NCBI GenBank assembly: GCA_964464375.1
Contig: CAYXFU010000016.1
Span: 15,074-79,073, forward strand
Length of the DNA stretch: 64,000 nt
Direction: 5' to 3'
Source: an uncultured Hyphomicrobiales bacterium
GTDB taxonomy: Bacteria > Bacteroidota > Ignavibacteria > Kapaibacteriales > UBA2268
The stretch's first letter is position 1, and the number at the start of each line of letters is the position of its first letter. A program made the position numbers and the translations under genes. Positions 458 through 36,209 of the stretch are shown piece after piece. Under the pieces are notes generated by a model, which was not told where the DNA came from, did not search any database, and was given only the letters and a program-made list of their open reading frames with translations.

Positions 458-1921
458 TTATTTAATCAATATTTTAATTGCTTTATAGTATTGTACAGAT
501 GATATTGATATAAGATAAACACCATTCTGCAAAGTTTCAATATTATTAAGAGGTAGATAGGTTTCGCATGATATTGATGCCTTTTGCTCCAGCAACTTGT
601 CGCCTAGAACATTGAAGACTGTTATTGTTAGGTCAGAATTAATGCAATTTAGATTTCCAAAAAATAATTTATTGTTTTGAAAATACATGTTATTCTGGTC
701 ATTTTTAAAATCTTCCGCACTCAGAACATGATTAAAATCGTATATTTTACCGTCAGAATCTATGCCTTTCAGCTCAGAAAAATGAATTATTGGTGTCAAT
801 TCTGAATACTTTTTTGGCTCAAGAATTAAATTTGCTATAATATTATTAGTATTGTCAATTAGGGCACTTTCCTGCTCGTAGGAGCCTGTTGTAAATATAA
901 ATGACTTAGTATTCGGTTCAATAGCTGAGAATGTATAGGAATCGCTAAAAACGTTCCCGGATTCGATACCTAATATATTATAGTGTTCAGATAAATTAGT
1001 TAAATCGATCGATCCAGCGAAAGCAATAATATTTTCCACTGTATTAATCGAAATTGGATATCGTTCATATCTTGAATTGATATCAAATTTAATATCATCT
1101 TTTAGTTTTGGAAAATCAGAATTCAAAAAATTATGCCTTTTGGTGAAGTTTACAGGAACAACAAGCAGATCATTAATATTCACTTCACCGTTGCCGTCAC
1201 AATCAGAAAAAGTTACCAGTGAACTGTCCCAGGCTAGACATCTCTGGCTTGTCCAGTTTGTACTTGAGTATTGTCTCGAAAATGTTCTCGAATCCAAATG
1301 TCTTTGCCCAAAGTTGAGATATAAACCAATATTAGTGATATCAGTGACATCAACAACTTTGTCATTGTTTGCATCACCGGGCCACACATTAACAAAACCA
1401 TGAATAAAGTATGAAATATCAGTCTTCTGCAACTCGATAACTTTCTGGTTATTATTTGTATCAAGAACGAACCCCTGTGCCGTTGGGAATGACAATGTTA
1501 TAGATTGTCCATAAGGAGCGTTTTGGCTGACAGCAAACTCAAGAGTGATTATCTTTATGGGAGCAGGTTTCAGCTTGTTTGCGAAATCATTGGTCAATAC
1601 ACCGATGATTATATCGCCCTTATTCGTTGTTGTGTCAACTTTTGGAATAACCACACTGGCACTTTTGTCCCAAACGTCACCATAGCTGACAGCTGAGAGA
1701 CTAATATATTTACTTTGGTTATAGCTGATATGGATATTACTTCCATAACAATTTTGGATGCTGTCTATGCTTAGATCGATGGAAAAAAGATATGTTGCCG
1801 TTATGAAAGATGAACGGTTTGTATCGACATCGTTTCTGATAACTTTCAATTTTTGTGCATAATTTACGTTATAGGACAAAATGAGCAACAAAATGGTTAA
1901 TAATATTTTTTTCATATCCAA
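458..1921 (-). CDS. Secreted protein with dockerin-like or EF-hand-like Ca-binding repeats (GDANNDKVVDVTDI, CDGNGEVNINDLLV) and a T9SS-CTD-like C-terminus (GVYLISI...)
   Basis: N-terminal signal peptide MKKILLTILLLILSYNVNYAQ; paired D-x-N-x-D-G-x-V-N-x-x-D motifs; C-terminal beta-strand motif typical of Por secretion tails. Confidence 0.5.
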   Translation of the reverse strand: MDMKKILLTILLLILSYNVNYAQKLKVIRNDVDTNRSSFITATYLFSIDLSIDSIQNCYGSNIHISYNQSKYISLSAVSYGDVWDKSASVVIPKVDTTTNKGDIIIGVLTNDFANKLKPAPIKIITLEFAVSQNAPYGQSITLSFPTAQGFVLDTNNNQKVIELQKTDISYFIHGFVNVWPGDANNDKVVDVTDITNIGLYLNFGQRHLDSRTFSRQYSSTNWTSQRCLAWDSSLVTFSDCDGNGEVNINDLLVVPVNFTKRHNFLNSDFPKLKDDIKFDINSRYERYPISINTVENIIAFAGSIDLTNLSEHYNILGIESGNVFSDSYTFSAIEPNTKSFIFTTGSYEQESALIDNTNNIIANLILEPKKYSELTPIIHFSELKGIDSDGKIYDFNHVLSAEDFKNDQNNMYFQNNKLFFGNLNCINSDLTITVFNVLGDKLLEQKASISCETYLPLNNIETLQNGVYLISISSVQYYKAIKILIK

Positions 1922-2082
1922 AACTTCAATAATTTAGTAATATCAAAAGAATTTCAGCAATCAACGTGCCAAAAGGTAATGATTTGATTGAATTGTATAT
2001 TAATAAAGCGGAACGTTGAATTGTCAAAATATGAAAGCAGGTCTGGGATGGCTTTAGAAAACCATCTCCAACAATTGGAGAG

Positions 2083-2125
2083 GGAATTAATACATTGCAA
2101 TTTGCGAAATATGAGGAATCATATC
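2083..2125 (+). repeat. ~40-nt intergenic motif GAGGGAATTAATACATTGCAATTTGCGAAAT..GAGGAATCAT, second copy at 36365..36410
   Basis: near-identical strings at two distant intergenic sites, same orientation. Confidence 0.5.
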
Positions 2126-2155
2126 AACGAATCGGTTTTTTAAAGGAAATGAAAA

Positions 2156-2239
2156 TTATATCTTTATAAACTTCCCTACTTTATCCCCAATTCGGACAAT
2201 ATACATGCCCGGAGCAAAGCCGGAAACATCAGGAATTTT
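2156..2239 (-). pseudogene. Orphan 28-codon 3' fragment of a T9SS C-terminal domain (..KIPDVSGFAPGMYIVRIGDKVGKFIKI*), no upstream gene body; overlaps the antitoxin stop in another frame
   Basis: reverse-strand translation matches the conserved CTD ending GMYFVRIGDKVGKF(V/I)K(L/I) of four full-length genes in this window. Confidence 0.6.
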
Positions 2240-2513
2240 TAAAAAGTACTTCAGGATTCCTTTCTGCAATCAAAAGAAGTACATTAGCAGGACCTGTTGG
2301 TTTTCTTCTGCCTTGTTCCCAGTTTTTTAAGGTACCAACACTTATACCGAGAAGATCAGCAAATTTATCCTGAGATAGATTGTGTTTCAGTCTTATTTCT
2401 TTTATTTCATTAGATTTTATCTCAAATCTTCTAGAAGGCTGGATTTCTTTTTTTAATATTTTACCACCTTCATGAATGCTTTGGACAAGATCATCGAACA
2501 TTTCTTTTTTCAT
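2229..2513 (-). CDS. HTH XRE-family antitoxin (HigA-like)
   Basis: LSQDKFADLLGISVGTLKNWEQGRRKPTGPA helix-turn-helix; 1-nt overlap with the upstream toxin gene. Confidence 0.7.
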   Translation of the reverse strand: MKKEMFDDLVQSIHEGGKILKKEIQPSRRFEIKSNEIKEIRLKHNLSQDKFADLLGISVGTLKNWEQGRRKPTGPANVLLLIAERNPEVLFKNS

Positions 2514-2839
2514 TATGAGAATTCCTCTTCAATAATTTTACTCAGTATTTTAATTTGATTGGGAGATAAATCGTCCCGCTCAGATTTTGAATAAGCATAT
2601 AATAGTAAAATTGTGTCTTTCATATCGACCCAAAAATAAATAATTCTTATTCCTCCACTTTTGCCTTTTGATTTGGTTTTCCATCTGATTTTTCTCAATC
2701 CACTTGACCCCTTAATAACCTTACCAAAAGCCGGATCGTTTGCCAGAAAATTTTGAAAATCCCTATATTCTTCACTATCTAGTAGAACAAGAATTTGCTT
2801 AGTAAATATTTTTGTCTCTACAATTATCATGTAAGTCAT
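2513..2839 (-). CDS. RelE/ParE-superfamily toxin (HigB/Gp49-like)
   Basis: ~108 aa; GKSGGIRIIYFW..LLLYAYSKSERDDLSPNQIKIL resembles the phage Gp49-like/HigB family; toxin-first order typical of HigBA. Confidence 0.6.
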   Translation of the reverse strand: MTYMIIVETKIFTKQILVLLDSEEYRDFQNFLANDPAFGKVIKGSSGLRKIRWKTKSKGKSGGIRIIYFWVDMKDTILLLYAYSKSERDDLSPNQIKILSKIIEEEFS

Positions 2840-2858
2840 TGACGTAGTAAATTCAACA

Positions 2859-4763
2859 TTATTTAATTTTCACAAATTTCCCGACTTTATCTCCAATCCG
2901 CACAAAATACATCCCAGTAGTTAGAGAAGTGACATTGATTTGTAGGGGTTCAAAATTTTGAACCCCTACAGTCATTACAGTTTGACCGAATACATTGAAG
3001 ATACAGATACCCTCAGATGGACTCCACTTGGCAAGTGGAGCCCATCTTCTCATATCGATTTCTACGAAATCTGATGCTGGATTGGGTGAAAGAATAAAAG
3101 ACTCTGCACTTTTGATATCCGATACATCTGTGATTAAATGAATAGATAATCTGGCTCTTTGAGGTGTCTTACATTCAGTTGTTAAACTTTGTGCTTCAAT
3201 ATAAACAACTGTATCTTTATAAACATATAATGAGAAATAATTTCTTGCTGACTGAAGCAGATTACCACCAACAGGTGAATCATACAGATAAAATGTTGAA
3301 TTTTTGGGAGACAAAGGTATTATTGAAATGTCCTGTTTTTTAATAAGCACAGTATCATTTACTAATACAGGTATTCCAGGATACACTTTAATAGATGTTT
3401 GATTTTCTTCCCCGATTGAAACAGGGTCGGTACTCCTAACTCTGATTTTGTAACTCTCACCTTCTGTAACATCTGAAGGTATTCCTACCTTAATTTTGCC
3501 TTGATAAATACTTTTGCTTTTACCTATAATTTTGACATTTGATGACCATGAACCGTTTGTGTCTGACAATTCTGCAATAAATTCATTTCCTGTTTTATAT
3601 AGTATATAAGTTTTGAAAGCCAGATCAAAGCTATCTCCAGGGCAAAATTGAAGTTTCATTGGCTTGGGGTCATCTGTATTAATTGTTAGCTTTTTGTTCC
3701 TGTAATAAATAATATAAAATTCTTTTATTGTTGTATCACTAATTACAAATTGATGTCTTGAAGGCTGGATTTGTGCTATTTCCCTCATGTCTGATTTGAA
3801 TTTGGAATTTGAATCAAGACTTTCATATAATAAAAATGTTGAATTTTGTGGGAAATTAATATCTTCATATTCTAATTTCAGTGGATAATCTGTTGCCTTA
3901 GAAAAGAACTTTACATGATAAATAAGAGGTGTAGATTCGTTTTTAAATTCTCTGATATCTCTAGAATTTGAATATGGTTTCTCGTCATTAGGGGCAATAT
4001 CGTATATTCCGTATTCTAAAGTATATGGAAGACTATCTATATAAAACCTGGCTTGAAAATTACGCATAATATAGTCAAAAGGACCTTCAGCATAACATGT
4101 ATCAGCATTCATACTTGCTCTGTAATGTGATCCAAATATCAGATTTGTTGTATCTATATTTTTTGAAACTAAAAATAACTCAATACCGGGTTTTGAAGTT
4201 GAATCAAACCATTCATAAGGATTATAGAAAATCCAAATCGGTACATCAACATTGACATAACCGCTGTCATTTAATTCTTTTGCAGTAAATAATAAATTTG
4301 CTGTATAATAGCCGGGTTTCATTGTTTTTGGAGGGATAAATTTCAAATCCAAATCTAAATAATTACCTTTTGTTAGGTTGAAAACATTACCACTAGTTAC
4401 ATAATTTGGAAAGGGATTCTGCTTTCCGGCTCCGGCAACTGATTTGAATACCAAGTATGGCTGATCGGAGCTAATCAGCATTGATTCGATCTTGGATGTA
4501 TCAGTTTTCAAGCTGATATTCATTATGCCGGAATGGGTATTACCTGTTCCTGAATCGGATGAAAATGGATTCCTGATTGAATAAGAATAAAGAGAGTTCT
4601 TCATTGTCGTTGGCAACCAACCAGTTTTTCTGTCAATGTTAAACATTAATTCTGCATTTGATGAGATTTTAGCCGAATTGTTATCCATTGCAGTAATAGA
4701 TTGAGCTGATGTGAGAGCATATCCCAGTAGGGTGACAATAACTATTAAGTATTTCATCTTCAT
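2859..4763 (-). CDS. Secreted protein with T9SS C-terminal sorting domain
   Basis: signal peptide; C-terminus SPNPASDFVEIDMRRWAPLAKWSPSEGICIFNVFGQ..GMYFVRIGDKVGKFVKIK. Confidence 0.6.
   Translation of the reverse strand: MKMKYLIVIVTLLGYALTSAQSITAMDNNSAKISSNAELMFNIDRKTGWLPTTMKNSLYSYSIRNPFSSDSGTGNTHSGIMNISLKTDTSKIESMLISSDQPYLVFKSVAGAGKQNPFPNYVTSGNVFNLTKGNYLDLDLKFIPPKTMKPGYYTANLLFTAKELNDSGYVNVDVPIWIFYNPYEWFDSTSKPGIELFLVSKNIDTTNLIFGSHYRASMNADTCYAEGPFDYIMRNFQARFYIDSLPYTLEYGIYDIAPNDEKPYSNSRDIREFKNESTPLIYHVKFFSKATDYPLKLEYEDINFPQNSTFLLYESLDSNSKFKSDMREIAQIQPSRHQFVISDTTIKEFYIIYYRNKKLTINTDDPKPMKLQFCPGDSFDLAFKTYILYKTGNEFIAELSDTNGSWSSNVKIIGKSKSIYQGKIKVGIPSDVTEGESYKIRVRSTDPVSIGEENQTSIKVYPGIPVLVNDTVLIKKQDISIIPLSPKNSTFYLYDSPVGGNLLQSARNYFSLYVYKDTVVYIEAQSLTTECKTPQRARLSIHLITDVSDIKSAESFILSPNPASDFVEIDMRRWAPLAKWSPSEGICIFNVFGQTVMTVGVQNFEPLQINVTSLTTGMYFVRIGDKVGKFVKIK
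3019..3043. repeat. In-frame 25-nt palindrome ggactccacttggcaagtggagccc inside the CTD coding region (encodes WAPLAKWSP); identical copy at 53907..53931
   Basis: palindrome seen directly; same sequence at the same CTD position in a second gene. Confidence 0.7.
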
Positions 4764-4774
4764 TTTATCCCATT

Positions 4775-5563
4775 TTACAATTTTATAAATTTCCCAACTT
4801 TATCCCCAATTCTCACAAAATACATCCCCGGAGGCAAACTGGAGATATCGATTCTTACTCCCTCCCTGCTCGCGGGGAGGGTTGGGGTGGGGTTAGGTGT
4901 GGCCTGTATTTCTCCCAGCACATTATATATACTCACGTCGCTTTGTAGGGGCGAACGGCCGTTCGCCCCTACGGATATTTCTATGAAATCTGTAGTTGGA
5001 TTAGGCGATACTTCAAAATCTTCTTTATTTTCTGGATTTTTTGATGGAACGTCCAAATTAGTATCCTCGTATCTTCTTAGATAATTGAAATTTGTAACAA
5101 GGCTTACATGTCCTATCTTATTTTCAACTGAATCTATGTTAGAATAATTCATCAGTCTTAGAAGCAAAACTCGTGGTAAAAATTTGGTGGTATCGGGTTC
5201 TTGAGGTAAATACTCCCTAAACCAAAATGTTCCATAAAGCGATTCAAAATGCTGAAATTCATTTTTTGTATTTAAATAGGTTGTAAGAATATCATGCCAT
5301 GTATATTCTATTATTGTGTCTTTTGGATAAATTCCAGATCTAGGAATAACATTATACTGAAATTCAACTCGAAAAATTTGTTTGGCATATAATTGTCCAA
5401 ATGTCGGTGACCAGTAACAGCTATCAACTTTGACCGAATCGGGATTTTGAAATCCCATCTTTTGATGCTTAAGTAGTTTTAGGCAACTGTCTGGTACTTG
5501 TGCATAATTTGCACCCAAACCAATAAAACTAAAATAAAGAAACATAAAGAATAATCTTTTCAT
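4775..5563 (-). CDS. Secreted protein with T9SS C-terminal sorting domain
   Basis: signal peptide MKRLFFMFLYFSFIGLGANYAQ; C-terminus SPNPTTDFIEISVGANGRSPLQSDVSIYNVLGEI..GMYFVRIGDKVGKFIKL. Confidence 0.6.
   Translation of the reverse strand: MKRLFFMFLYFSFIGLGANYAQVPDSCLKLLKHQKMGFQNPDSVKVDSCYWSPTFGQLYAKQIFRVEFQYNVIPRSGIYPKDTIIEYTWHDILTTYLNTKNEFQHFESLYGTFWFREYLPQEPDTTKFLPRVLLLRLMNYSNIDSVENKIGHVSLVTNFNYLRRYEDTNLDVPSKNPENKEDFEVSPNPTTDFIEISVGANGRSPLQSDVSIYNVLGEIQATPNPTPTLPASREGVRIDISSLPPGMYFVRIGDKVGKFIKL
4858..4881. repeat. In-frame GC hairpin ccctccctgctcgcggggaggg at a second variable site of the CTD (between NVLGEI and IDISSL)
   Basis: inverted repeat seen directly; the analogous site in the 53712 gene and the 52735 fragment carries a different hairpin, cctctcctttccaaggagggg. 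Confidence 0.55.
4945..4972. repeat. Perfect 28-nt palindrome gtaggggcgaacggccgttcgcccctac, in-frame in the CTD (encodes VGANGRSPL); related copies at 23153..23180 and 52927..52954
   Basis: perfect palindrome seen directly; recurs in orphan CTD copies. Confidence 0.75.
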
Positions 5564-5596
5564 TTTTGTAGCCTCATAAAAATTTATCCATTATTA

Positions 5597-5625
5597 ACCC
5601 CAACTTAAGCATGGGGTTAATAAAT
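5597..5625 (-). terminator. Hairpin ttaacccca..tggggttaa between the 5706 and 4775 genes, possible terminator
   Basis: 9-bp stem; weak T-tract. Confidence 0.35.
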
Positions 5626-5705
5626 TCTTTTAGTTTATTAACCTCAGTGAATAACTTAACACATTTAACTCAAAAAAGTTACATAGAATACCAAAATTTC
5701 TTCGA

Positions 5706-6497
5706 TTATCTAGAAAGATAAATTCTCTTGCGGATTAGTTTTTCCTTACCAATACGGACTTCGCCGACATAATCGCCAACGGGCAGTAGTCTTCCCGAAT
5801 CATCGCGTCCGTTCCATGTGTAAGTGAAGTCGCCGGGGCTCTGGATTCCGTCGAACATTGTAGCGATGATCACCGCATTCATAGAATAGACAACAACCTG
5901 CACTCTGGTTCTATATTCTAATGTATATTTCATTACGGGCGAAACATCCTCAACTAGTCCGAGAAAACTCCCAATCATTGAAAAAGGAATTTTAAGTCCA
6001 TTGGGGTTATAAAGAGTTGTGTTATTATAGGTCGATGCCTGCTGTAGATTGTATTCATGCTGGAACATCTCTCTAGCCGATGGTTTGAAGTATTCCGGAG
6101 GTATGTCGAGATTCTCACGGATTCTTTCGTATGGAGAATATGGTTTTTTAGCTACTGTAGGTAAATATTGGGAAAACATTCTGAGGTCATTGTTTAGCCT
6201 TGTCGAAAGTGGGATTCTCAATCGCAAAGCTCTTGTATAATTGCTGTCCTGAAACATTGATGTAGGTCTGCCGAATGCTCCGGGCATAGCATCCAATTTA
6301 GTTTTGACAGTGTCAATCTTTATTGTATCGCCTTTTAATATCTGAAGCGGAGTGAAGTTATTATCCTTGAGAATAACCTTAGAACTATCAGCTCCTGTTT
6401 TAAGGGCAAATGAAGAATTTGTGAATATAAAAAGGAACACAATGGCACTTAAAATAAAATGCAGATTTGACAGAGTATGTTTGATTTGACCGGACAT
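5706..6497 (-). CDS. Hypothetical secreted or membrane-anchored protein with C-terminal FlgD-Ig-like motif (FTYTWNGRDDSGRLLPVGDY)
   Basis: N-terminal hydrophobic segment; C-terminal motif. Confidence 0.35.
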   Translation of the reverse strand: MSGQIKHTLSNLHFILSAIVFLFIFTNSSFALKTGADSSKVILKDNNFTPLQILKGDTIKIDTVKTKLDAMPGAFGRPTSMFQDSNYTRALRLRIPLSTRLNNDLRMFSQYLPTVAKKPYSPYERIRENLDIPPEYFKPSAREMFQHEYNLQQASTYNNTTLYNPNGLKIPFSMIGSFLGLVEDVSPVMKYTLEYRTRVQVVVYSMNAVIIATMFDGIQSPGDFTYTWNGRDDSGRLLPVGDYVGEVRIGKEKLIRKRIYLSR

Positions 6498-6643
6498 AAA
6501 GATTCAAATATTATTTCTAATCAATTTATCATAAAATTAACGTTAAAGCTGAAATTTAAGTATAATTTTTAAAAATATAAATTGGAAGAATTAAATCATA
6601 TCTTTTGTTACTATATTTCCTAGAGTGTAAACATCAAAAATAG

Positions 6644-7783
6644 CTACAATTTTTTCAGCCACGCAGAAAAGAAAACATCCGTAACAAAATATGATCCCTT
6701 TTCGGTATGTATCAGTTCTTTGTCAAGAAGTGACTTCAGAGCCTGGCTAACTGTGCTTGTAGAACTCAAATGATACTTACGGATGAATTCTCCTGAAGTT
6801 GGTTCTTTTATAGCATCTTCTCCTGCGATCGCTCTAAGCAGCTGCCATTGGTTGTTTGTCAGAAGGCTTCGGTAGCTGTGATATACAGATTCATTTCCGT
6901 TGATTATATTGTTCAAGGTTGTTTCGATGTCCTTTTGTTTTATCGTCTTTAGTCTCTGCTCAAATAATCTGTTGCATAAAAACTGAACGTAGTAAGTATG
7001 TGTACGGGCTTTACTCAGTATTAACTTAGCTTCTTTTTCTGCTATCGTCTGCTTTCCTGTTCTGAATTGCTTGATGATAAATTCTATATACTTTTTGTCA
7101 TTTATTTTTTGCAATTCAAAAAACTCACTGCTCTGATAAAATGGTCTTCCTGCGTCGCTGAACATTGACATCAGAAGATGCTTCTTACTTCCCGAAAAGA
7201 CAAAATTTGCATTGGCAATCGATTGAATATGCGAACGAAGCACAGCTTCGACATTTTTCTCTGGATATTCGGATATTTGTTGAAATTCATCGATGCAGAT
7301 GTAAAAATGCTTTTTTACTGACTTTATATATCTGAAAACATCATCAATCGTGCTGAGGGCTTCATCATCGTCACTTATTTTCAGCTCAATCGATGGAAGA
7401 TTTGTATTAGAGTCAATTGTCAACGAGGGTGTTATCCTTGTCAGTAACGACTTAATCGCAGCAAATGACTTCATTGTCAGAGTTGCCGACTGCTCGAAGA
7501 CACTTTTAGCGAATACTCTTGTGAAGGAAGCCAGGTCAGTTGTCGGCATGATGTCGATATAGACGGGAACAATTTCATTCTTCGACTGCATAATATTCTG
7601 AACATGTTTAACCAGAACGGACTTGCCGAGTCTGCGAATTGAAGCCAGAACCACATTTCTGCCATTAGTAGCAGCATTCGTGAGCTTTTTAGTTTCCACC
7701 TCCCTGTCGCAGAAGTATTCAGGGGAATCGTATCCAAATATCACGAATGGATTTTTAATGTCTGTTTTTATGTCGTATACCAT
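6644..7783 (-). CDS. AAA+ ATPase of the Arch_ATPase/DUF234 type
   Basis: Walker A GRNVVLASIRRLGKS, Walker B CIDEFQQI, C-terminal wHTH-like region. Confidence 0.55.
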   Translation of the reverse strand: MVYDIKTDIKNPFVIFGYDSPEYFCDREVETKKLTNAATNGRNVVLASIRRLGKSVLVKHVQNIMQSKNEIVPVYIDIMPTTDLASFTRVFAKSVFEQSATLTMKSFAAIKSLLTRITPSLTIDSNTNLPSIELKISDDDEALSTIDDVFRYIKSVKKHFYICIDEFQQISEYPEKNVEAVLRSHIQSIANANFVFSGSKKHLLMSMFSDAGRPFYQSSEFFELQKINDKKYIEFIIKQFRTGKQTIAEKEAKLILSKARTHTYYVQFLCNRLFEQRLKTIKQKDIETTLNNIINGNESVYHSYRSLLTNNQWQLLRAIAGEDAIKEPTSGEFIRKYHLSSTSTVSQALKSLLDKELIHTEKGSYFVTDVFFSAWLKKL

Positions 7784-26828: not shown

Positions 26829-27116
26829 CTAATACCACTCTTCACTTAAATCATTCCAATTAGGATTATTACCTTCAATCAATTTAATTTTTTTTACTCT
26901 TGAATATCCTTTAATATGCTTTTCTCTGACAATAGCAGATTCAATATTTCCACAGTCTTCAAGGAATACTAGTTGATGAACAGAATATTTGGAAGTAAAA
27001 CCTTCAAATAAATTATTTTTATGTTCATAGACTCTTTTTAATAAATTAGATGTTACACCTGTGTAAAGTGTTCCATTTTTTTGCGAAGCCATAATATATA
27101 CAAACCCGTTTTTCAT
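26829..27116 (-). CDS. GIY-YIG nuclease-superfamily small protein
   Basis: GFVYIMASQKNGTLYTGVTSNLLKRVYEH (GIY..YIG motif), 95 aa. Confidence 0.7.
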   Translation of the reverse strand: MKNGFVYIMASQKNGTLYTGVTSNLLKRVYEHKNNLFEGFTSKYSVHQLVFLEDCGNIESAIVREKHIKGYSRVKKIKLIEGNNPNWNDLSEEWY

Positions 27117-27294: not shown

Positions 27295-27915
27295 TCATCC
27301 TAAATTTTGTTCGGGAATAAAATCCGAAAAATTATTACTTTGATTAACAGATTTAATTTCGGTCAGAACCTCATCGATAGAACTGAAGACCTTCCACGAT
27401 GTAACGAAAGCTTCACCCATGAATTTTTCGGAGATTGATTTCTCCATCATTCTGAGCAGGTCATCGTAGTAACCATTGAGATTTATGATGTAAACAGGTT
27501 TATCTATAATCCCGAGGAACTTCCAGGCTAATGCCTGAAGGAGCTCCTCCATAGTGCCGATACCGCCGGGAAGAGCTATGATAGCATCAGCACTGTGAAT
27601 AAGCTTTGATTCTCTGTGATGGATAGTTTCTACAACATTCAGCTCATCTAAATCCTCTCTGCCCCATTCTTTAGCTACCATGAACTCAGGAATGAAACCG
27701 ATAACCTTTCCGCTGTTCGCAAGTGCACCATCGGAGAGCCGCCCCATCAATCCAACTTTGCCGCCACCATAGATAATTCTGATATTCATCTTAGCCAGAG
27801 CAGTACCAAGTTCGAAAGCAGAATCAAGAAAAAATGGATCTACATTTTTGCTTGATGCACAAAAAACGCATATACTATTAATCATACTCTTGTTTTTATC
27901 ATTTAACCAATTCAC
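27295..27915 (-). CDS. LOG-family protein (cytokinin riboside 5'-monophosphate phosphoribohydrolase-like)
   Basis: PGGIGTMEEL and GGGKVGLMG motifs. Confidence 0.8.
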   Translation of the reverse strand: MNWLNDKNKSMINSICVFCASSKNVDPFFLDSAFELGTALAKMNIRIIYGGGKVGLMGRLSDGALANSGKVIGFIPEFMVAKEWGREDLDELNVVETIHHRESKLIHSADAIIALPGGIGTMEELLQALAWKFLGIIDKPVYIINLNGYYDDLLRMMEKSISEKFMGEAFVTSWKVFSSIDEVLTEIKSVNQSNNFSDFIPEQNLG

Positions 27916-31229: not shown

Positions 31230-31889
31230 GTGAAAGAAGAATACTATACCACATCGAACATTTATGACAAGGCTGACACTATAATCAATCAGTCTTACAT
31301 GACCTCCGGCAGAACCCAGTCGGACGAAATCAATGTAGAAAATTCAGCATTACTTGTTTTGGATATGCAGGATTATTTTCTCAGGGAAGAATCAAAAGCA
31401 TATATTCCTTCAACAACAGCTATCTTACCTAATTTGGTTACATTAACCGAAACAATTAATGATAAGAACATACCTGTTATTTACACACGTCATGTGAACA
31501 ACTGTGAAGATGCAGGAATGATGGGAGTCTGGTGGCACAGGTTAATAGAAAGCGGCAACCCATTGTCAAATCTGAGTAGATTGTTCGATACAGATGGAAA
31601 AACTGTTATCGACAAAACTCGTTATGATGCTTTCTGGGGCACAGAACTGAATAATATCTTGAAGCAAATGGGAATCGAAAGACTTATAGTTACTGGTGTT
31701 ATGACTAATTTATGTGTAGAAACCACAATCAGATCAGCATTTCAGCATGGATATGAATGTACTTTATTAGTAGATGGCACAGCAGCTTATAATTTTGATA
31801 TGCATCTGGCAACTTGTGTTAATCTTTCTTTTGGGTTTTGTAAATTGAATCTTATTTCTGAAATATTAGGAGCATTTAATGCTGAATAA
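31230..31889 (+). CDS. Isochorismatase-family cysteine hydrolase
   Basis: LLVLDMQDYF..VIYTRHV..LIVTGVMTNLCVETT catalytic Cys motif. Confidence 0.7.
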   Translation: MKEEYYTTSNIYDKADTIINQSYMTSGRTQSDEINVENSALLVLDMQDYFLREESKAYIPSTTAILPNLVTLTETINDKNIPVIYTRHVNNCEDAGMMGVWWHRLIESGNPLSNLSRLFDTDGKTVIDKTRYDAFWGTELNNILKQMGIERLIVTGVMTNLCVETTIRSAFQHGYECTLLVDGTAAYNFDMHLATCVNLSFGFCKLNLISEILGAFNAE

Positions 31890-32760
31890 ATACCAGGTAG
31901 TTGTTATTGGAGGAGGACCGGCAGGGTGTGCTTGTGCTATTCAGCTAAAACGCTACGGAATTGACTGTATAATTATAGAAAAAAACAGAATCGGCGGACT
32001 GCTCTGGAATGCTAATCTGATCGAAAATTATATGGGATTTCCTATTGGCGTTAGGGGTAGCCAGCTAATTCAGCTTATTAATGATCATCTGGAATACACA
32101 AAAACCCCAATAATTTTCGATGAGGTTAAGCATTGTACTTATGCAGATTATGTCTTCACATTAAAACTAAAAGAAACTACAATCCAGGCAGATTATCTTG
32201 TTCTTGCGAATGGAACTGTTCCTAAGAAACCTTTTGCGGAAATCACTGAAGAAGCCGCTAAAAGAATGTTTTACGAAGTTGCTGACACTAATGAAAGGGC
32301 TTATCAGCATTTTGCAATCATTGGTTCCGGTGATGCTGCATTTGATTATGCTATCAATCTGTCTCAATATGGAACAAAGTCCGATATCTTTTGCAGAACC
32401 TCTGAAATCAAGGCTATTCCACTTCTGGCAGAGAGATCAAAGACAATTCCGGGAATAAATGTTTATTTAAATCATAGTTTAACCAAAGTTGTCATTGATG
32501 GCGAGAAGCTTAGACTAACATTCGAATCCGATGGCATGATGAAAGAAGTAGAAGTTGATTACATTATATTCGCAATTGGGCGTGAGCCTGATTTCTCGAT
32601 ATTTAGTGAATCAATTAACTCAAAAAGAGAAGAACTGATTAAGGAAGAAAAGCTTGTTTTTATCGGCGACTGTGTTAATGGAATGAACAGACAATCGTCA
32701 ATAGCTAGCGGAATGGGCATTAATTCCGCAATGAACATTTATAGAAAAATCAACAGTTAG
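31879..32760 (+). CDS. FAD/NAD(P)-binding oxidoreductase (thioredoxin-reductase-like fold)
   Basis: VVVIGGGPAGCACA dinucleotide-binding motif; 11-nt overlap with the upstream gene. Confidence 0.65.
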   Translation: MLNKYQVVVIGGGPAGCACAIQLKRYGIDCIIIEKNRIGGLLWNANLIENYMGFPIGVRGSQLIQLINDHLEYTKTPIIFDEVKHCTYADYVFTLKLKETTIQADYLVLANGTVPKKPFAEITEEAAKRMFYEVADTNERAYQHFAIIGSGDAAFDYAINLSQYGTKSDIFCRTSEIKAIPLLAERSKTIPGINVYLNHSLTKVVIDGEKLRLTFESDGMMKEVEVDYIIFAIGREPDFSIFSESINSKREELIKEEKLVFIGDCVNGMNRQSSIASGMGINSAMNIYRKINS

Positions 32761-32761
32761 A

Positions 32762-33697
32762 ATGAAAGTAATCAGCAAAACAAGTGATAGTGAAATAGCA
32801 TCTGTATTTATAGCGGAAGACAATAAAGGGAGACTACTTGAATTCGTTGAATCGACACAGCCTCCGTTTACAATTAACCAAAAATGGGTTCTGATTATAT
32901 CAACCTTGTTCGGTTGTCCGGTTGACTGTAAATTCTGCGATGCAGGAGGATCTTACAATGGCATAGTGTCATACGATCAGCTTAAATTCCAGATAGATTA
33001 TCTGATTAACAGAAGGTTCCCGGATGGTAACGTTGACACCGACAAATTCAAGATACAATTTGCAAGAATGGGCGAACCGGCATTCAATCCTAATGTTCTA
33101 AGCATACTAGAGGATTTTCCTACTTTATATAATTATAGATATTTCCTGCCATCGCTATCGACTATAGCACCTGCATCCACCGGAAGCTTTTTCGATAAAC
33201 TGCTGGAAATCAAACACAAATTATATGCTGATACCTTCCAGCTCCAATTCTCGATTCACTCCACAGACATTGAACAAAGAGATCAACTGATTCCCGTAAA
33301 AAAATGGAGCTTTGAACAGATTGGGAAATATTCACAGGAATTCTTTCAACAGGGCGGAAAGAAGATTACATTGAATTTTGCTGTATCGCAGCAGAATATC
33401 ATCGAGCCCGAAAAGATCGTCGAATACTTCGATCCCGCAATTTTCCTTATTAAATTAACACCGTTAAATCCAACATATAAAGCTTCAGCGAATGGGATGT
33501 TCAATGTAATAAGTGGCGACGGTCAAAATTTAGAAATTGTCGAGAGATTCACATCTTGTGGCTATGATGTAATCATCAGCATTGGAGAACTTGAAGAAAA
33601 CAAGATCGGCAGTAACTGCGGACAGTACATCAGCAAACACCTGGGCTGTAATGCAGAACCAGAAGATACCTACCTTTATCCATTGATAAGCGTTTAA
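32762..33697 (+). CDS. Radical SAM enzyme
   Basis: CPVDCKFCDAGG (CxxxCxxC) near the N-terminus; GEPAFNP; starts 2 nt after the upstream stop. Confidence 0.6.
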   Translation: MKVISKTSDSEIASVFIAEDNKGRLLEFVESTQPPFTINQKWVLIISTLFGCPVDCKFCDAGGSYNGIVSYDQLKFQIDYLINRRFPDGNVDTDKFKIQFARMGEPAFNPNVLSILEDFPTLYNYRYFLPSLSTIAPASTGSFFDKLLEIKHKLYADTFQLQFSIHSTDIEQRDQLIPVKKWSFEQIGKYSQEFFQQGGKKITLNFAVSQQNIIEPEKIVEYFDPAIFLIKLTPLNPTYKASANGMFNVISGDGQNLEIVERFTSCGYDVIISIGELEENKIGSNCGQYISKHLGCNAEPEDTYLYPLISV

Positions 33698-33763
33698 ATT
33701 TTATACAATCAGGATTTAAGAAATCTAGTATTATGACGATACTTCTATTTAAGTTAATGTTAT

Positions 33764-35101
33764 TTGTATAGATTCATGGAAATTAATAGAATGTCGGCTT
33801 GGTTCAAGAATTTTTTGTTCAGTACCCAAGGCACAATGATATTAGAAGAGAAGATGCTAATTACTGCTATAGCAAGTGGTTGCATCACAAGCATTATTGG
33901 TGGGATTACAAATTTACTTCTGGGTTATTCATTTATAGCGTCAATTATTCCTTGGATATTAGCTCTTGGATTGATGGTACTTTTTTATTTTGTAAGATAT
34001 CAGAAGAAATATTCCCGGATTATATTTCCTTTCATAATTTCAGCATTTTTGGGTGTAGGATTAATTTGGATTAATAATGGCGGTTACAACGGAACTAATA
34101 CTATAGTTCTTTTCACAATCTTTGTGTTGACTCTGTGTATTCTTCCAACAAACAGACTTCATTTCATCTTCATTTTCTTCGTTGTTCTCTTAGTTATACT
34201 TCACCTTTATCAATATCATTATCCTGATCGAATTACCAATTTTCCAAATGAAGCAACAAGATTTGCCGATACTCTATTCACTGTAATCAACGGTTCAGCA
34301 TTCGTATATTTGATGATTTCGTTTCTTGTTAAGAATTACAGAAAAGAACGACAAATAGCGAATGAAAGAGGCGATCAGCTTGAAAAATTATACAAGGAAG
34401 TAAAGCAGCTGAATGAAGCAAAGGATAAATTCTTTTCGATAATTGCCCACGATCTGAAGAATCCAGTGGCTAATTTATTCCAAATATCACACCTGTTTGA
34501 CGATGAGTTCGACTCAATGAACGAAGTTGAAAGAAAAGAAATGATTGGAATGATTAAAGAATCATCTGTGAGCTTGCTGGACTTGCTTAACAATCTACTC
34601 TTCTGGTCTAGGAGTCAGCGAGATAAGATTATATTTACTCCCGAACTAATCGATGTTAATGATATTATAATTGCGAACCTAACGCTGCTAAAATTAAGTG
34701 CAGCTAATAAAAATATAAAATTGGATTTCCGTAAGAATGTAAATTGTGAGTGCTATTGCGACAAGCATCTGATCGATATTGTTTTCAGAAATCTTATCTC
34801 AAATGCAATTAAATTTACAAATAAAGGTGGTACAATTTCAATTTTCAGTGAAACTGCTGCAGATGAAAAATTTAATTTGATTAAAATTAAAGATTGTGGC
34901 GTTGGTATCCGCGAAGAAGATATAGATAAACTGTTTCAGCTTGATTCACATGTAAAAACCAGAGGTACGAATAACGAGAAGGGAACAGGATTGGGTTTAA
35001 TACTATGCAAAGAATTCGTTGAATTAAACGGCGGAAACATCTGGGTTGAAAGTGAAGTTGGTAAAGGAAGCACTTTTTATTTCACGATACCTAAAAATTA
35101 A
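33764..35101 (+). CDS. Membrane sensor histidine kinase (multi-TM sensor + HisKA + HATPase_c)
   Basis: 6-7 TM N-region; FFSIIAHDLKNP H-box; GTGLGLILCKEF..GKGSTFYF; true start may be M at 33791. Confidence 0.8.
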   Translation: MYRFMEINRMSAWFKNFLFSTQGTMILEEKMLITAIASGCITSIIGGITNLLLGYSFIASIIPWILALGLMVLFYFVRYQKKYSRIIFPFIISAFLGVGLIWINNGGYNGTNTIVLFTIFVLTLCILPTNRLHFIFIFFVVLLVILHLYQYHYPDRITNFPNEATRFADTLFTVINGSAFVYLMISFLVKNYRKERQIANERGDQLEKLYKEVKQLNEAKDKFFSIIAHDLKNPVANLFQISHLFDDEFDSMNEVERKEMIGMIKESSVSLLDLLNNLLFWSRSQRDKIIFTPELIDVNDIIIANLTLLKLSAANKNIKLDFRKNVNCECYCDKHLIDIVFRNLISNAIKFTNKGGTISIFSETAADEKFNLIKIKDCGVGIREEDIDKLFQLDSHVKTRGTNNEKGTGLGLILCKEFVELNGGNIWVESEVGKGSTFYFTIPKN

Positions 35102-35131
35102 GACTAAATGCTTTTAGTATTTCGTTGTTTA

Positions 35132-35162
35132 AGGAGAAGATGAATTTCTTCTCCTTTTCTTA
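35132..35162 (+). terminator. Hairpin aggagaagatgaatttcttctcct + T-tract after the kinase gene
   Basis: stem-loop followed by T-tract. Confidence 0.6.
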
Positions 35163-35179
35163 ATTATTTTTTGTAAGTT

Positions 35180-35548
35180 ATGATTGACAAAAAGAAATTA
35201 AAACAAGATTATTTGAACATGGTTCCGCCAAAAGGGGTGTTTGTTTTCCGGAATGAGAAGACTGGAAGAGTATATCTGGGAAGTTCGCTCAATTTGAAGA
35301 ATAAGGAAGTTAGAATTAAGTTGATGCTGAAAACCGGAAATCACTTCAACAATGCACTGCAAGAGGATTGGAACAAATACGGAGAAGATGCATTCACTTA
35401 TGAGGTAGCCGAAACATTACAGCTGAAGGATGATCCAAACTATGATTATAATGAGGATCTTGAGATACTCGAAATGCTCTTGATTGATAAGTTCAGACCA
35501 CTGGCTGAGAAATGCTATAATCAGAATGAGAAGATAAGATTGGTGTGA
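35180..35548 (+). CDS. GIY-YIG domain small protein
   Basis: GVFVFRNEKTGRVYLGSSLNLKNK matches the GIY-x(10)-YIG spacing. Confidence 0.5.
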   Translation: MIDKKKLKQDYLNMVPPKGVFVFRNEKTGRVYLGSSLNLKNKEVRIKLMLKTGNHFNNALQEDWNKYGEDAFTYEVAETLQLKDDPNYDYNEDLEILEMLLIDKFRPLAEKCYNQNEKIRLV

Positions 35549-35660
35549 TCTATTTCCTAGGGTTTGCACGCTCAGTTAATCAGATTCAGCCGCTTTGTGG
35601 CAGAAAAAAATATTAAGGCACTTGATTCTCCACTTCGTTAAGAATGACAGAAAAGGCAAC

Positions 35661-36209
35661 ATGGGAACAGCACTACTAATAATAGATATTCAAAACGACT
35701 ACTTCGATGGTGGAGCTAACCCTCTTGTCGATTCTGAAAAAGCGTGCATCAATGCGCGTTTGATTCTCGATGCTTTCCGTGAGGATGGAATGCCGGTAAT
35801 CTTCGTACAACATATATCTAATCGACCAGACTCAACATTCTTTCTGCCATGCACTTTTGGTGCTGAGATCCATCGCGTTTTAACTCCAATTGGTAATGAA
35901 ATGGTAATCACCAAGAATTATCCAAACAGCTTCAAGAATACAGATCTGCTTGAATATCTGAGAGCAAACGAAATACATAACCTGATAATCTGCGGTATGA
36001 TGACTCACTTATGCATAGACTCAACCGTAAGAGCCGCTAAAGATCTTGGGTTTAACTGCACTCTGATCGGTGATGCCTGCGCTACAAAGAATCTGGAGAT
36101 TAATGGACAGTTGGTCATTGCAGAAGTAATACAGAACAGCTTCCTTGCTGCACTTAACGGATTTTATGCAACAGTGATCAAAACTGAAGAATATTTGGGT
36201 GGAGAGTAA
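35661..36209 (+). CDS. Isochorismatase-family hydrolase (second paralog); start moved to M at 35661
   Basis: MGTALLIIDIQNDYF..IICGMMTHLCIDSTV; the 35595 extension would translate through a repeat arm. Confidence 0.65.
   Translation: MGTALLIIDIQNDYFDGGANPLVDSEKACINARLILDAFREDGMPVIFVQHISNRPDSTFFLPCTFGAEIHRVLTPIGNEMVITKNYPNSFKNTDLLEYLRANEIHNLIICGMMTHLCIDSTVRAAKDLGFNCTLIGDACATKNLEINGQLVIAEVIQNSFLAALNGFYATVIKTEEYLGGE

What the first reader, a model, noticed from the sequence alone, without database searches (positions are those of the whole stretch)
31230..36209. Isochorismatase-flavoprotein-radical SAM operon with sensor kinase, GIY-YIG gene and second isochorismatase
Three tightly packed genes make up the operon: an isochorismatase-like Cys hydrolase, an FAD/NAD(P) oxidoreductase overlapping it by 11 nt, and a radical SAM enzyme (CPVDCKFCDAGG) starting 2 nt after the oxidoreductase stop. 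A multi-TM histidine kinase follows with no cognate response regulator nearby, then a small GIY-YIG protein and a paralogous isochorismatase. The rSAM + flavoprotein + hydrolase trio suggests modification of a small molecule, nucleoside or cofactor. I cannot assign it to a known pathway.
Basis: partly seen in the sequence, partly recalled or inferred. Interest (0 to 1): 0.6.

Follow-up and report, generated by a model that had tools for sequence, protein, structure and literature searches.

The report
Conserved hydrolase–flavoprotein–radical SAM gene cassette
Three tightly packed genes (a cysteine hydrolase, a flavoprotein and a truncated RlmN/Cfr-like radical SAM enzyme) form an uncharacterised cassette that moves as a unit across many bacterial and archaeal phyla, and the kinase, GIY-YIG-like gene and second hydrolase next to it are only local neighbours.

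Summary
The six ORFs are real and lie at the stated coordinates. Only the first three form a conserved unit.

- **Conservation:** Of 48 genome loci with enough upstream DNA, 44 keep flavoprotein→rSAM and 39 keep all three genes. Junctions are mostly 4-nt overlaps. All three pairwise gene fusions occur. The three distance matrices correlate at r = 0.82–0.87.
- **Neighbours:** Flanking genes are heterogeneous. The kinase, GIY-YIG-like gene and second isochorismatase recur only in a 91%-identical relative.
- **The partners:** The flavoprotein has a thioredoxin-reductase fold but no CxxC. The hydrolase keeps its Asp-Lys-Cys triad.

My best guess is a three-enzyme complex that C-alkylates a small heteroaromatic amide, with the flavoprotein supplying electrons. 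The substrate is unknown. I found no paper describing it.

The parts
31230..31889 (+). iso1: isochorismatase-family cysteine hydrolase, first gene of the conserved cassette
   Evidence: PF00857 at 131 bits. The D44/K129/C161 triad is conserved in at least 95% of 35 orthologues. It is adjacent to the flavoprotein-rSAM pair in 39 of 48 loci. It is fused to the flavoprotein in L028 and L029 and to the rSAM in P0152, P0161 and P0171. All NCBIfam equivalogs score far below cutoff (BiuH 73/370, RutB 57/378, PncA 38/174). The GTG start at 31230 is favoured because in L001 the internal Met24 is Arg while the N-terminal residues are conserved.
31879..32760 (+). Thioredoxin-reductase-fold FAD/NAD(P)H flavoprotein without a redox disulfide, second gene of the cassette
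   Evidence: Pyr_redox_2 at 93 bits. TIGR01292 scores 137 bits against a cutoff of 343. The best PDB relatives are thioredoxin reductases at E 6e-23. No cysteine is conserved among 39 orthologues, and the CxxC position reads FYEVAD. It lies directly upstream of the rSAM in 44 of 48 loci. It is fused to the rSAM in L035, P0128, P0151 and P0185.
32762..33697 (+). NTD-less RlmN/Cfr-like radical SAM enzyme, third gene of the cassette
33764..35101 (+). Multi-TM histidine kinase: local neighbour, possibly co-transcribed here, not part of the conserved cassette
   Evidence: HisKA+HATPase_c. It follows the trio only in L001. No terminator-like site lies between the rSAM and the kinase. No response regulator was found in the neighbouring ORFs tested.
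35131..35156 (+). Terminator-like hairpin (10-bp stem followed by a T-run) after the kinase gene
   Evidence: It marks the likely 3' end of the local transcription unit. This is a consensus match only.
35180..35548 (+). 122-aa GIY-YIG-like protein: not part of the cassette
   Evidence: Only sub-threshold hits. It recurs only in L001.
35595..36209 (+). iso2: second isochorismatase-family hydrolase, a distant paralogue, not part of the cassette
   Evidence: PF00857 at 138 bits. It is 28% identical to iso1. It recurs only in L001.

Best explanation
Genes 31230-33697 encode a self-contained, horizontally mobile three-enzyme system whose proteins work together, probably as a physical complex. Shown: the synteny, translational coupling, fusions and co-evolution. 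Also shown: the radical SAM protein is a derivative of the RlmN/Cfr class-A methylase fold. It has lost the N-terminal RNA-recognition domain and the resolving cysteine, and it keeps the Fe-S motif, the SAM-binding motifs and the C-terminal cysteine that carries the methyl group in RlmN/Cfr. Inferred: one SAM methylates C286. A second SAM is cleaved to a 5'-deoxyadenosyl radical that turns the S-methyl into a methylene radical. That radical adds to an sp2 carbon of a small heteroaromatic metabolite rather than of RNA. Inferred: the disulfide-less thioredoxin-reductase-fold flavoprotein carries electrons from NAD(P)H, either to the [4Fe-4S] cluster or to resolve the enzyme-substrate adduct reductively in place of the missing cysteine. 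Inferred: the isochorismatase-family hydrolase, with its intact Asp-Lys-Cys triad, hydrolyses an amide or ureido group of the substrate or product. This step is dispensable in lineages that keep only the flavoprotein-rSAM pair. The kinase, GIY-YIG-like gene and second isochorismatase are unrelated neighbours. The substrate is unknown.
Against: No substrate, product or activity is known. No transporter, regulator or riboswitch is conserved next to the trio to point to a metabolite. An RlmN-type mechanism without the resolving cysteine is expected to stall as a covalent adduct, so the chemistry may differ, for example with C286 acting as a hydrogen-atom donor. Loss of the N-terminal domain does not exclude an RNA or protein substrate. 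Phage relatives sit near tRNA genes and tRNA-repair genes. The flavoprotein could act on the substrate rather than on the cluster. The Mantel correlations are partly inflated by shared ancestry.
Confidence: 0.4

Rival explanations
1. The rSAM is an RNA (tRNA or rRNA) adenine C-methyltransferase variant. The flavoprotein is its dedicated reductase, and the hydrolase has an auxiliary or unrelated role.
For: RlmN and Cfr are the closest structures and the closest sequence families. The methyl-carrier cysteine is retained, as is a conserved Glu (E27); its equivalence to RlmN E105 is my manual alignment using the E. coli RlmN sequence recalled from memory. Related phage clades (phrog_24834) lie beside tRNA genes, RNA ligases, KTI12/PNK-like genes and PTH2.
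Against: The N-terminal RNA-recognition domain is absent, and identity to RlmN is only 14-21%. The resolving cysteine is absent. This reading gives no role to a catalytically intact amidohydrolase that is fused to the rSAM or to the flavoprotein in several lineages. The protein is acidic.
Confidence: 0.2
2. The substrate belongs to nicotinamide/NAD metabolism. The hydrolase de-amidates a nicotinamide-type amide, the flavoprotein uses NAD(P)H, and the rSAM modifies the pyridine or adenine ring. This is a specific version of the small-molecule model.
For: Divergent members of the same rSAM superfamily sit in NAD gene clusters in three independent contexts. These are NadE-NMNAT-rSAM in a Peregrinibacteria locus, NUDIX-NAMPT-rSAM-NUDIX-NAD kinase on a phage-like contig, and a Prs-like gene plus a 559-aa NAPRT-family gene (the NARP1 gene types) followed by the rSAM in Vibrio phage 496E54-1. 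A Tad2-like gene follows the rSAM in another phage clade. The isochorismatase superfamily includes nicotinamidases.
Against: These are 27-35% identical paralogues, not the trio clade. Other phage lineages examined show no NAD genes nearby. iso1 scores 38 bits against a cutoff of 174 on the PncA model, and by eye it lacks the Asp/His metal motif of nicotinamidases. No NAD gene recurs beside the trio. The NARP papers read do not mention an rSAM.
Confidence: 0.15
3. The trio is a split RlmN-type machine. The nucleophilic cysteine of the isochorismatase-like protein acts in trans in place of the missing resolving cysteine, and the disulfide-less flavoprotein re-reduces the resulting protein disulfide.
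For: The rSAM lacks the C118 equivalent. iso1 has an invariant activated cysteine. The flavoprotein has the fold of a disulfide reductase but no disulfide of its own. All pairwise fusions imply a tight complex.
Against: Five lineages keep flavoprotein plus rSAM without an adjacent iso1. The full Asp-Lys-Cys hydrolase triad is conserved, which argues for real hydrolysis. From established knowledge, current views of RlmN favour C118 acting as a base rather than as a disulfide partner.
Confidence: 0.08
4. It is a queuine/7-deazaguanine salvage enzyme related to queuine lyase QueL.
For: Three distant representatives fuse a QueT-family transporter domain to the rSAM domain. Two of the three pass the Pfam cutoff for QueT.
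Confidence: 0.04
5. It is an ordinary housekeeping RlmN placed next to unrelated genes by chance.
For: JGI pipelines label many family members '23S rRNA (adenine2503-C2)-methyltransferase'.
Against: It scores 34 bits against the 290-bit cutoff, and it lacks both the N-terminal domain and C118. The neighbours are linked across phyla and fused.
Confidence: 0.02

Closest known systems
RlmN / Cfr (class A radical SAM methylases of 23S rRNA A2503 and tRNA A37)
   Different: Identity is 14-21%, and it scores 34 bits against cutoffs of 290-550. It has no N-terminal RNA-recognition domain. The resolving cysteine (RlmN C118 / Cfr C105) is Ile. It is always partnered with a flavoprotein and usually with a cysteine hydrolase. 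The substrate is unknown.
phrog_24834 (phage protein family of unknown function)
   Same: This is the best profile match of the window rSAM, at 102 bits and E 5.5e-29. It shows the same NTD-less architecture with a C-terminal 'CG' cysteine.
   Different: Identity is 27-33%. The phage members stand alone, without flavoprotein or hydrolase partners.
Low-molecular-weight thioredoxin reductase and TrxR-type ferredoxin-NADP reductases
   Same: The two-Rossmann-domain FAD/NAD(P)H architecture. PDB thioredoxin reductases match at E 6e-23 and FNRs at about 1e-9.
   Different: No CxxC and no conserved cysteine at all. It scores 137 bits against a cutoff of 343 on TIGR01292. It is fused to an rSAM or to a hydrolase in some genomes.
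Isochorismatase-family cysteine hydrolases (RutB, biuret hydrolase BiuH, N-carbamoylsarcosine amidase, PncA, YecD)
   Same: The PF00857 fold, the Asp-Lys-Cys triad and the 'TNLCVETT' nucleophile motif.
   Different: It falls below every equivalog cutoff. There is no evidence for any of the known substrates.
Queuine lyase QueL (PDB 6p78)
   Same: It is a radical SAM enzyme, and a QueT-type transporter is fused to a distant clade of this superfamily.

Membership tests
RlmN/Cfr class A radical SAM methylases | Whole-protein score above the curated family cutoff (TIGR00048, TIGR04432, NF000424) | tested here: not met
   34, 30 and 33 bits against cutoffs of 290, 550 and 530
RlmN/Cfr class A radical SAM methylases | CX3CX2C cluster motif and an RlmN-like core fold | tested here: met
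RlmN/Cfr class A radical SAM methylases | C-terminal methyl-carrier cysteine (RlmN C355 / Cfr C338) | tested here: met
   C286 is invariant within 'SNCGQ' and aligns with Cfr C338 'ACGQ'. Whether it is actually methylated was not testable.
RlmN/Cfr class A radical SAM methylases | Resolving cysteine (RlmN C118 / Cfr C105) | tested here: not met
   The aligned position is Ile45, and the family has no other invariant cysteine
RlmN/Cfr class A radical SAM methylases | N-terminal helical RNA-recognition domain | tested here: not met
   The protein starts at about RlmN model position 92. The model shows only the beta-extension before the core.
RlmN/Cfr class A radical SAM methylases | Methylation of adenine C2 or C8 in rRNA or tRNA | not testable with these tools
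   This needs biochemistry
Queuine lyase QueL | Sequence and fold similarity to the solved, characterised enzyme (6p78) | tested here: not met
Queuine lyase QueL | Q-salvage context (QueK or QrtT neighbours, preQ1 riboswitch) | tested here: not met
   None of these lies beside the trio. No riboswitch lies upstream of the QueT fusions.
Thioredoxin reductase (TrxB) | Redox-active CxxC in the NADPH domain | tested here: not met
   No cysteine is conserved in 39 orthologues, and the position reads FYEVAD
Thioredoxin reductase (TrxB) | Score above the TIGR01292 cutoff | tested here: not met
   137 bits against 343
Thioredoxin reductase (TrxB) | Two-dinucleotide-binding-domain FAD/NAD(P)H fold | tested here: met
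   Pyr_redox_2 and Pyr_redox_3 across the full length. The GxGxxG and GxGxxA motifs are conserved.
Isochorismatase-like cysteine hydrolases (PF00857) | Pfam domain above the gathering score | tested here: met
   iso1 scores 131 bits and iso2 138 bits against a cutoff of 27
Isochorismatase-like cysteine hydrolases (PF00857) | Asp-Lys-Cys catalytic triad | tested here: met
   D44, K129 and C161 are conserved in at least 95% of 35 iso1 orthologues
Nicotinamidase PncA | Equivalog score, and the metal-binding Asp/His motif | tested here: not met
   38 bits against 174. The absence of a DxH motif after the catalytic Asp is a reading by eye.
Known anti-phage defence systems (PADLOC) | Match of any trio protein to a defence-system model | tested here: not met
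   No hit for iso1 or the rSAM, and only noise for the flavoprotein
Two-component system (kinase with a cognate regulator as part of the unit) | Kinase conserved with the trio, and a response regulator adjacent | tested here: not met
   The kinase follows the trio only in L001. No Response_reg domain was found in the neighbouring ORFs tested.
GIY-YIG nuclease (the 122-aa protein) | Pfam or NCBIfam score above cutoff | tested here: inconclusive
   No Pfam hit. TIGR01453 scores 43 bits against 56. A PADLOC homing-endonuclease model matches at 2e-8.

The most novel reading that the evidence does not exclude
The cassette encodes a new type of class-A radical SAM alkylation system. An RlmN-derived enzyme without an RNA-binding domain and without a resolving cysteine transfers a cysteine-borne methylene to a small metabolite, possibly a pyridine or adenine nucleotide. 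A dedicated NAD(P)H flavoprotein completes the reaction reductively, by analogy with flavin-dependent thymidylate synthase. Its phage relatives (phrog_24834), which lie beside NAD-reconstitution and tRNA-repair genes, would then be an unrecognised family of counter-defence or metabolic enzymes.
Probability: 0.2. Interest if true: 0.8.

Novelty: new variant of a known kind. Interest (0 to 1): 0.58.

Why it matters
From established knowledge, RlmN and Cfr are the only characterised enzymes that methylate through a protein-bound methyl-cysteine radical, and both act on RNA. This is a large relative family: about 7,200 sequences at the 90% clustering level, spread over many phyla of anaerobic bacteria, candidate-phyla bacteria and archaea. 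It has shed the RNA-binding domain and the resolving cysteine and has gained two obligate-looking enzyme partners. If it acts on a metabolite, this chemistry would extend beyond RNA and would reveal a missing step in anaerobic cofactor or nucleotide metabolism. It also corrects a widely propagated automatic annotation ('23S rRNA (adenine2503-C2)-methyltransferase'). Finally, it links the family to a phage family of unknown function that sometimes lies next to NAD-reconstitution genes.

Tried and rejected
- **Defence system:** PADLOC gave no hits for the trio, and the flanks are housekeeping genes.
- **Riboswitch clue:** Rfam found nothing in the window, nothing upstream of the trio in 11 loci, and nothing upstream of the QueT fusions.
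- **RiPP system:** The 165-nt AT-rich region upstream and the 66-nt region downstream leave no room for a precursor gene, and no small neighbour recurs.
- **Additional conserved neighbours:** All-ORF clustering and a Pfam census of 92 flanking ORFs found none.
- **NAD link:** It appears in three contexts of divergent paralogues. It is absent from the trio's own flanks and from the other phage lineages examined. I keep it only as a rival.
- **Literature:** Nine full-text searches found no paper on this trio. One search was badly specified and wasted. Yuan et al. 2019 (PMC6754566) is not held.
- **AFDB fold search:** The library was unavailable.
- **Plasmid collection:** Only one weak hit, with no annotated feature under the match.
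- **Cultured carriers:** A cluster look-up returned no organism names.
- **Promoters:** The promoter scan was no better than the shuffled controls.
Full report
**Observation.** The six ORFs exist exactly as described, all on the + strand.

| Gene | Coordinates | Length / note |
|---|---|---|
| iso1 | 31230-31889 | 219 aa, GTG start |
| flavoprotein | 31879-32760 | 293 aa |
| rSAM | 32762-33697 | 311 aa, motif CPVDCKFCDAGG |
| histidine kinase | 33764-35101 | multi-TM |
| GIY-YIG-like protein | 35180-35548 | 122 aa |
| iso2 | 35595-36209 | 204 aa |

iso1 and the flavoprotein overlap by 11 nt. A single base separates the flavoprotein stop from the rSAM start codon. Pfam confirms Isochorismatase for iso1 and iso2, Pyr_redox_2 for the flavoprotein, and HisKA+HATPase_c for the kinase. 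The 122-aa protein is GIY-YIG-like only at sub-threshold level. The two isochorismatases are 28% identical. The window's closest genome match is an Ignavibacteria MAG, at 91% protein identity for the rSAM (L001).

**What belongs together.** The rSAM protein recovered 55 loci from one-genome-per-species contigs. They cover Bacteroidota, Ignavibacteria, Aminicenantes, Zixibacteria, Marinimicrobia, Calditrichaeota, Planctomycetota, Peregrinibacteria, Gracilibacteria, Anaerolineae, Desulfobacteraceae, Methanomicrobia, Methanosarcinales and Thermoplasmata. The evidence that only the first three genes form a unit is as follows.
- Of the 48 loci with at least 900 nt upstream, 44 have the flavoprotein gene directly before the rSAM gene, and 39 also have iso1. 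Thirty-eight of those 39 keep the window's gene order, and L041 has the order flavoprotein-rSAM-iso1.
- Five lineages (L012, L015, L020, L021, L025) keep only the flavoprotein-rSAM pair. Four loci have the rSAM alone, and three of those are 29-35% divergent.
- Gene junctions are dominated by 4-nt overlaps.
- All three pairwise fusions occur naturally. iso1+flavoprotein is found in L028 and L029. Flavoprotein+rSAM is found in L035, P0128, P0151 and P0185. rSAM+isochorismatase is found in P0152, P0161 and P0171.
- Pairwise-distance matrices of the three proteins correlate at r = 0.82-0.87, with 0 of 2000 Mantel permutations reaching that value. Similarity ignores taxonomy: methanogen copies are 58-60% identical to bacterial copies, while three Ignavibacteria copies are only about 50% identical to each other. 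This points to transfer as a cassette.
- Nothing else recurs. All-ORF clustering found no other family in more than 4 loci. The 92 immediately flanking ORFs hit 82 different Pfam families, none more than 4 times.
- The kinase, GIY-YIG-like gene and iso2 follow the trio only in L001. In the window no terminator-like site separates the rSAM from the kinase. A strong hairpin at 35131-35156 follows the kinase. The kinase may therefore be a local passenger of the transcript, and the last two genes lie outside it.

**The radical SAM protein.**
- It has no Pfam hit. Its only curated-family matches are RlmN/Cfr at 30-34 bits against cutoffs of 290-550. Its best profile match is a phage family of unknown function, phrog_24834, at 102 bits.
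- The family holds about 7,200 sequences at 90% clustering. They are unnamed or auto-labelled as RlmN. In a 50%-clustered library of 1.8 billion proteins, 91 representatives match at E up to 1e-30.
- Only four cysteines are invariant: C52, C56 and C59 of the cluster motif, and C286. A profile alignment to Cfr pairs 'iGSNCGQ' with 'DAACGQ', so C286 corresponds to the methyl-carrier Cfr C338 / RlmN C355. The same alignment pairs Ile45 with the resolving cysteine Cfr C105 / RlmN C118.
- The RlmN N-terminal helical domain is missing. The alignment begins near model position 92.
- The protein therefore fails membership of RlmN/Cfr on three defining features while keeping the parts needed to form a methyl-cysteine radical.

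**The partners.**
- The flavoprotein has the thioredoxin-reductase fold. It scores below the family cutoff, at 137 against 343 bits. It has no conserved cysteine, and the CxxC position reads FYEVAD. It cannot be a thioredoxin reductase. It is an NAD(P)H:acceptor oxidoreductase.
- iso1 keeps the Asp44-Lys129-Cys161 triad in at least 95% of orthologues. It falls below every equivalog cutoff (BiuH, RutB, YecD, PncA), so homology does not reveal its substrate.

**Leads followed.**
- *Defence system or riboswitch.* PADLOC gave nothing. No Rfam element lies upstream of the trio.
- *Phage relatives and NAD.* Other divergent clades are phage-borne. In three independent contexts the rSAM lies within NAD gene clusters. 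The first is NadE-NMNAT in a Peregrinibacteria locus. The second is NUDIX-NAMPT-rSAM-NUDIX-NAD kinase. The third is a Prs-like gene plus a NAPRT-family gene, the gene types of NARP1, in Vibrio phage 496E54-1. In others it lies near tRNA genes, RNA ligase, KTI12-like and PTH2 genes. The NARP papers read do not mention it. These are paralogues, and the association is not universal, so I keep NAD as a rival rather than a conclusion.
- *Alternative partners.* In Latescibacterota no flavoprotein is detected upstream. There the rSAM is followed by a metallo-beta-lactamase-fold hydrolase and a BcrAD/BadFG ATP-driven electron activase. This is a possible non-orthologous replacement that repeats the pattern of hydrolase plus reductant plus rSAM.

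**Mechanism.**
- *Shown:* a conserved, mobile three-gene unit whose products are repeatedly fused, and an rSAM of RlmN/Cfr ancestry that keeps the methyl-carrier cysteine.
- *Inferred, about 0.4 overall:* SAM methylates C286. A 5'-deoxyadenosyl radical converts the S-methyl into a methylene radical. That radical adds to an sp2 carbon of a small heteroaromatic compound. The flavoprotein delivers NAD(P)H electrons to the cluster or to resolve the adduct. iso1 hydrolyses an amide or ureido group before or after this step.
- *Rivals:* an RNA methylase variant (0.2), an NAD-related substrate (0.15), in-trans resolution by the iso1 cysteine (0.08), Q salvage (0.04), and chance or housekeeping RlmN (0.02).

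**Novelty and verdict.** I found no curated family, solved structure or paper that covers this cassette. Its components belong to known superfamilies, so I rate it a new variant of a known kind. Interest is 0.58. The cassette is widespread, clearly functional and mechanistically odd for an RlmN relative, but its substrate remains unknown.

Noticed in passing
L084 (Vibrio phage 496E54-1, OX241444) 623-4316; L068-L070 about 2500-7600; L055 85-3285: Divergent paralogues of the rSAM (phrog_24834, unknown function) lie directly beside NAD-salvage or NAD-reconstitution genes. The contexts are Prs-like plus NAPRT-family genes (the NARP1 gene types), NUDIX-NAMPT-rSAM-PTH2-NUDIX-NAD kinase, and NadE-NMNAT-rSAM. 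The NARP papers read do not mention an rSAM.
   Followed up: partly
L061, L063, L064 5001-6320; L074 5001-8763: Gut-phage and prophage clades of the same rSAM superfamily, one of them a cluster of 2,049 sequences. They are followed by a Tad2-like gene (PF11195) or lie near RNA ligase and KTI12/AAA_33 genes, which suggests an anti-defence or tRNA-repair neighbourhood.
   Followed up: partly
L078 6001-8445 (P0259, Bacilli MAG MCQ2753177.1); L079 3423-5885 (P0220): Single polypeptides combine a QueT-family membrane domain, the RlmN-like rSAM domain and an MTA/SAH nucleosidase domain. NCBI names P0259 only by its last domain. No preQ1 riboswitch lies upstream.
   Followed up: partly
L009 3-3966; L011 563-5233 (Latescibacterota): Here the rSAM is followed by a metallo-beta-lactamase-fold hydrolase and a BcrAD/BadFG 'CoA enzyme activase' (ATP-driven electron donor) instead of the isochorismatase and flavoprotein. 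This may be a non-orthologous replacement of both partners.
   Followed up: partly
window 35131-35156 (+): A 10-bp-stem terminator-like hairpin lies right after the kinase gene, and none lies between the rSAM and the kinase. The kinase may ride on the trio's transcript in this genome only.
   Followed up: partly
window 31230 versus 31299: Gene callers disagree on the iso1 start (219 aa from GTG, or 196 aa from ATG). In L001 the internal Met is Arg and the upstream residues are conserved, which favours the GTG start.
   Followed up: yes
L048 4553-6922; L049 2728-6734: In two MAGs whose isolate names begin with MFD, the trio genes are split into fragments, and in L049 about 1.7 kb separates the flavoprotein from the rSAM. 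This could be assembly frameshifts or decaying copies.
   Followed up: no
window 26829-27116 (-) and 35180-35548 (+): Two small stand-alone GIY-YIG-type ORFs lie within 9 kb of each other. The first passes Pfam GIY-YIG at 51 bits. The second is sub-threshold, and the two are barely similar to each other (E 0.004).
   Followed up: partly
window 27295-27915 (-): A LOG/TIGR00730-family gene (Lysine_decarbox, 155 bits) lies upstream of adk-rpmI-rplT-pheS. It is unrelated to the finding.
   Followed up: no
family-wide: JGI/IMG labels dozens of family members '23S rRNA (adenine2503-C2)-methyltransferase'. This is an over-annotation, given the 34-bit score against the 290-bit cutoff and the missing domain and cysteine.
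   Followed up: yes
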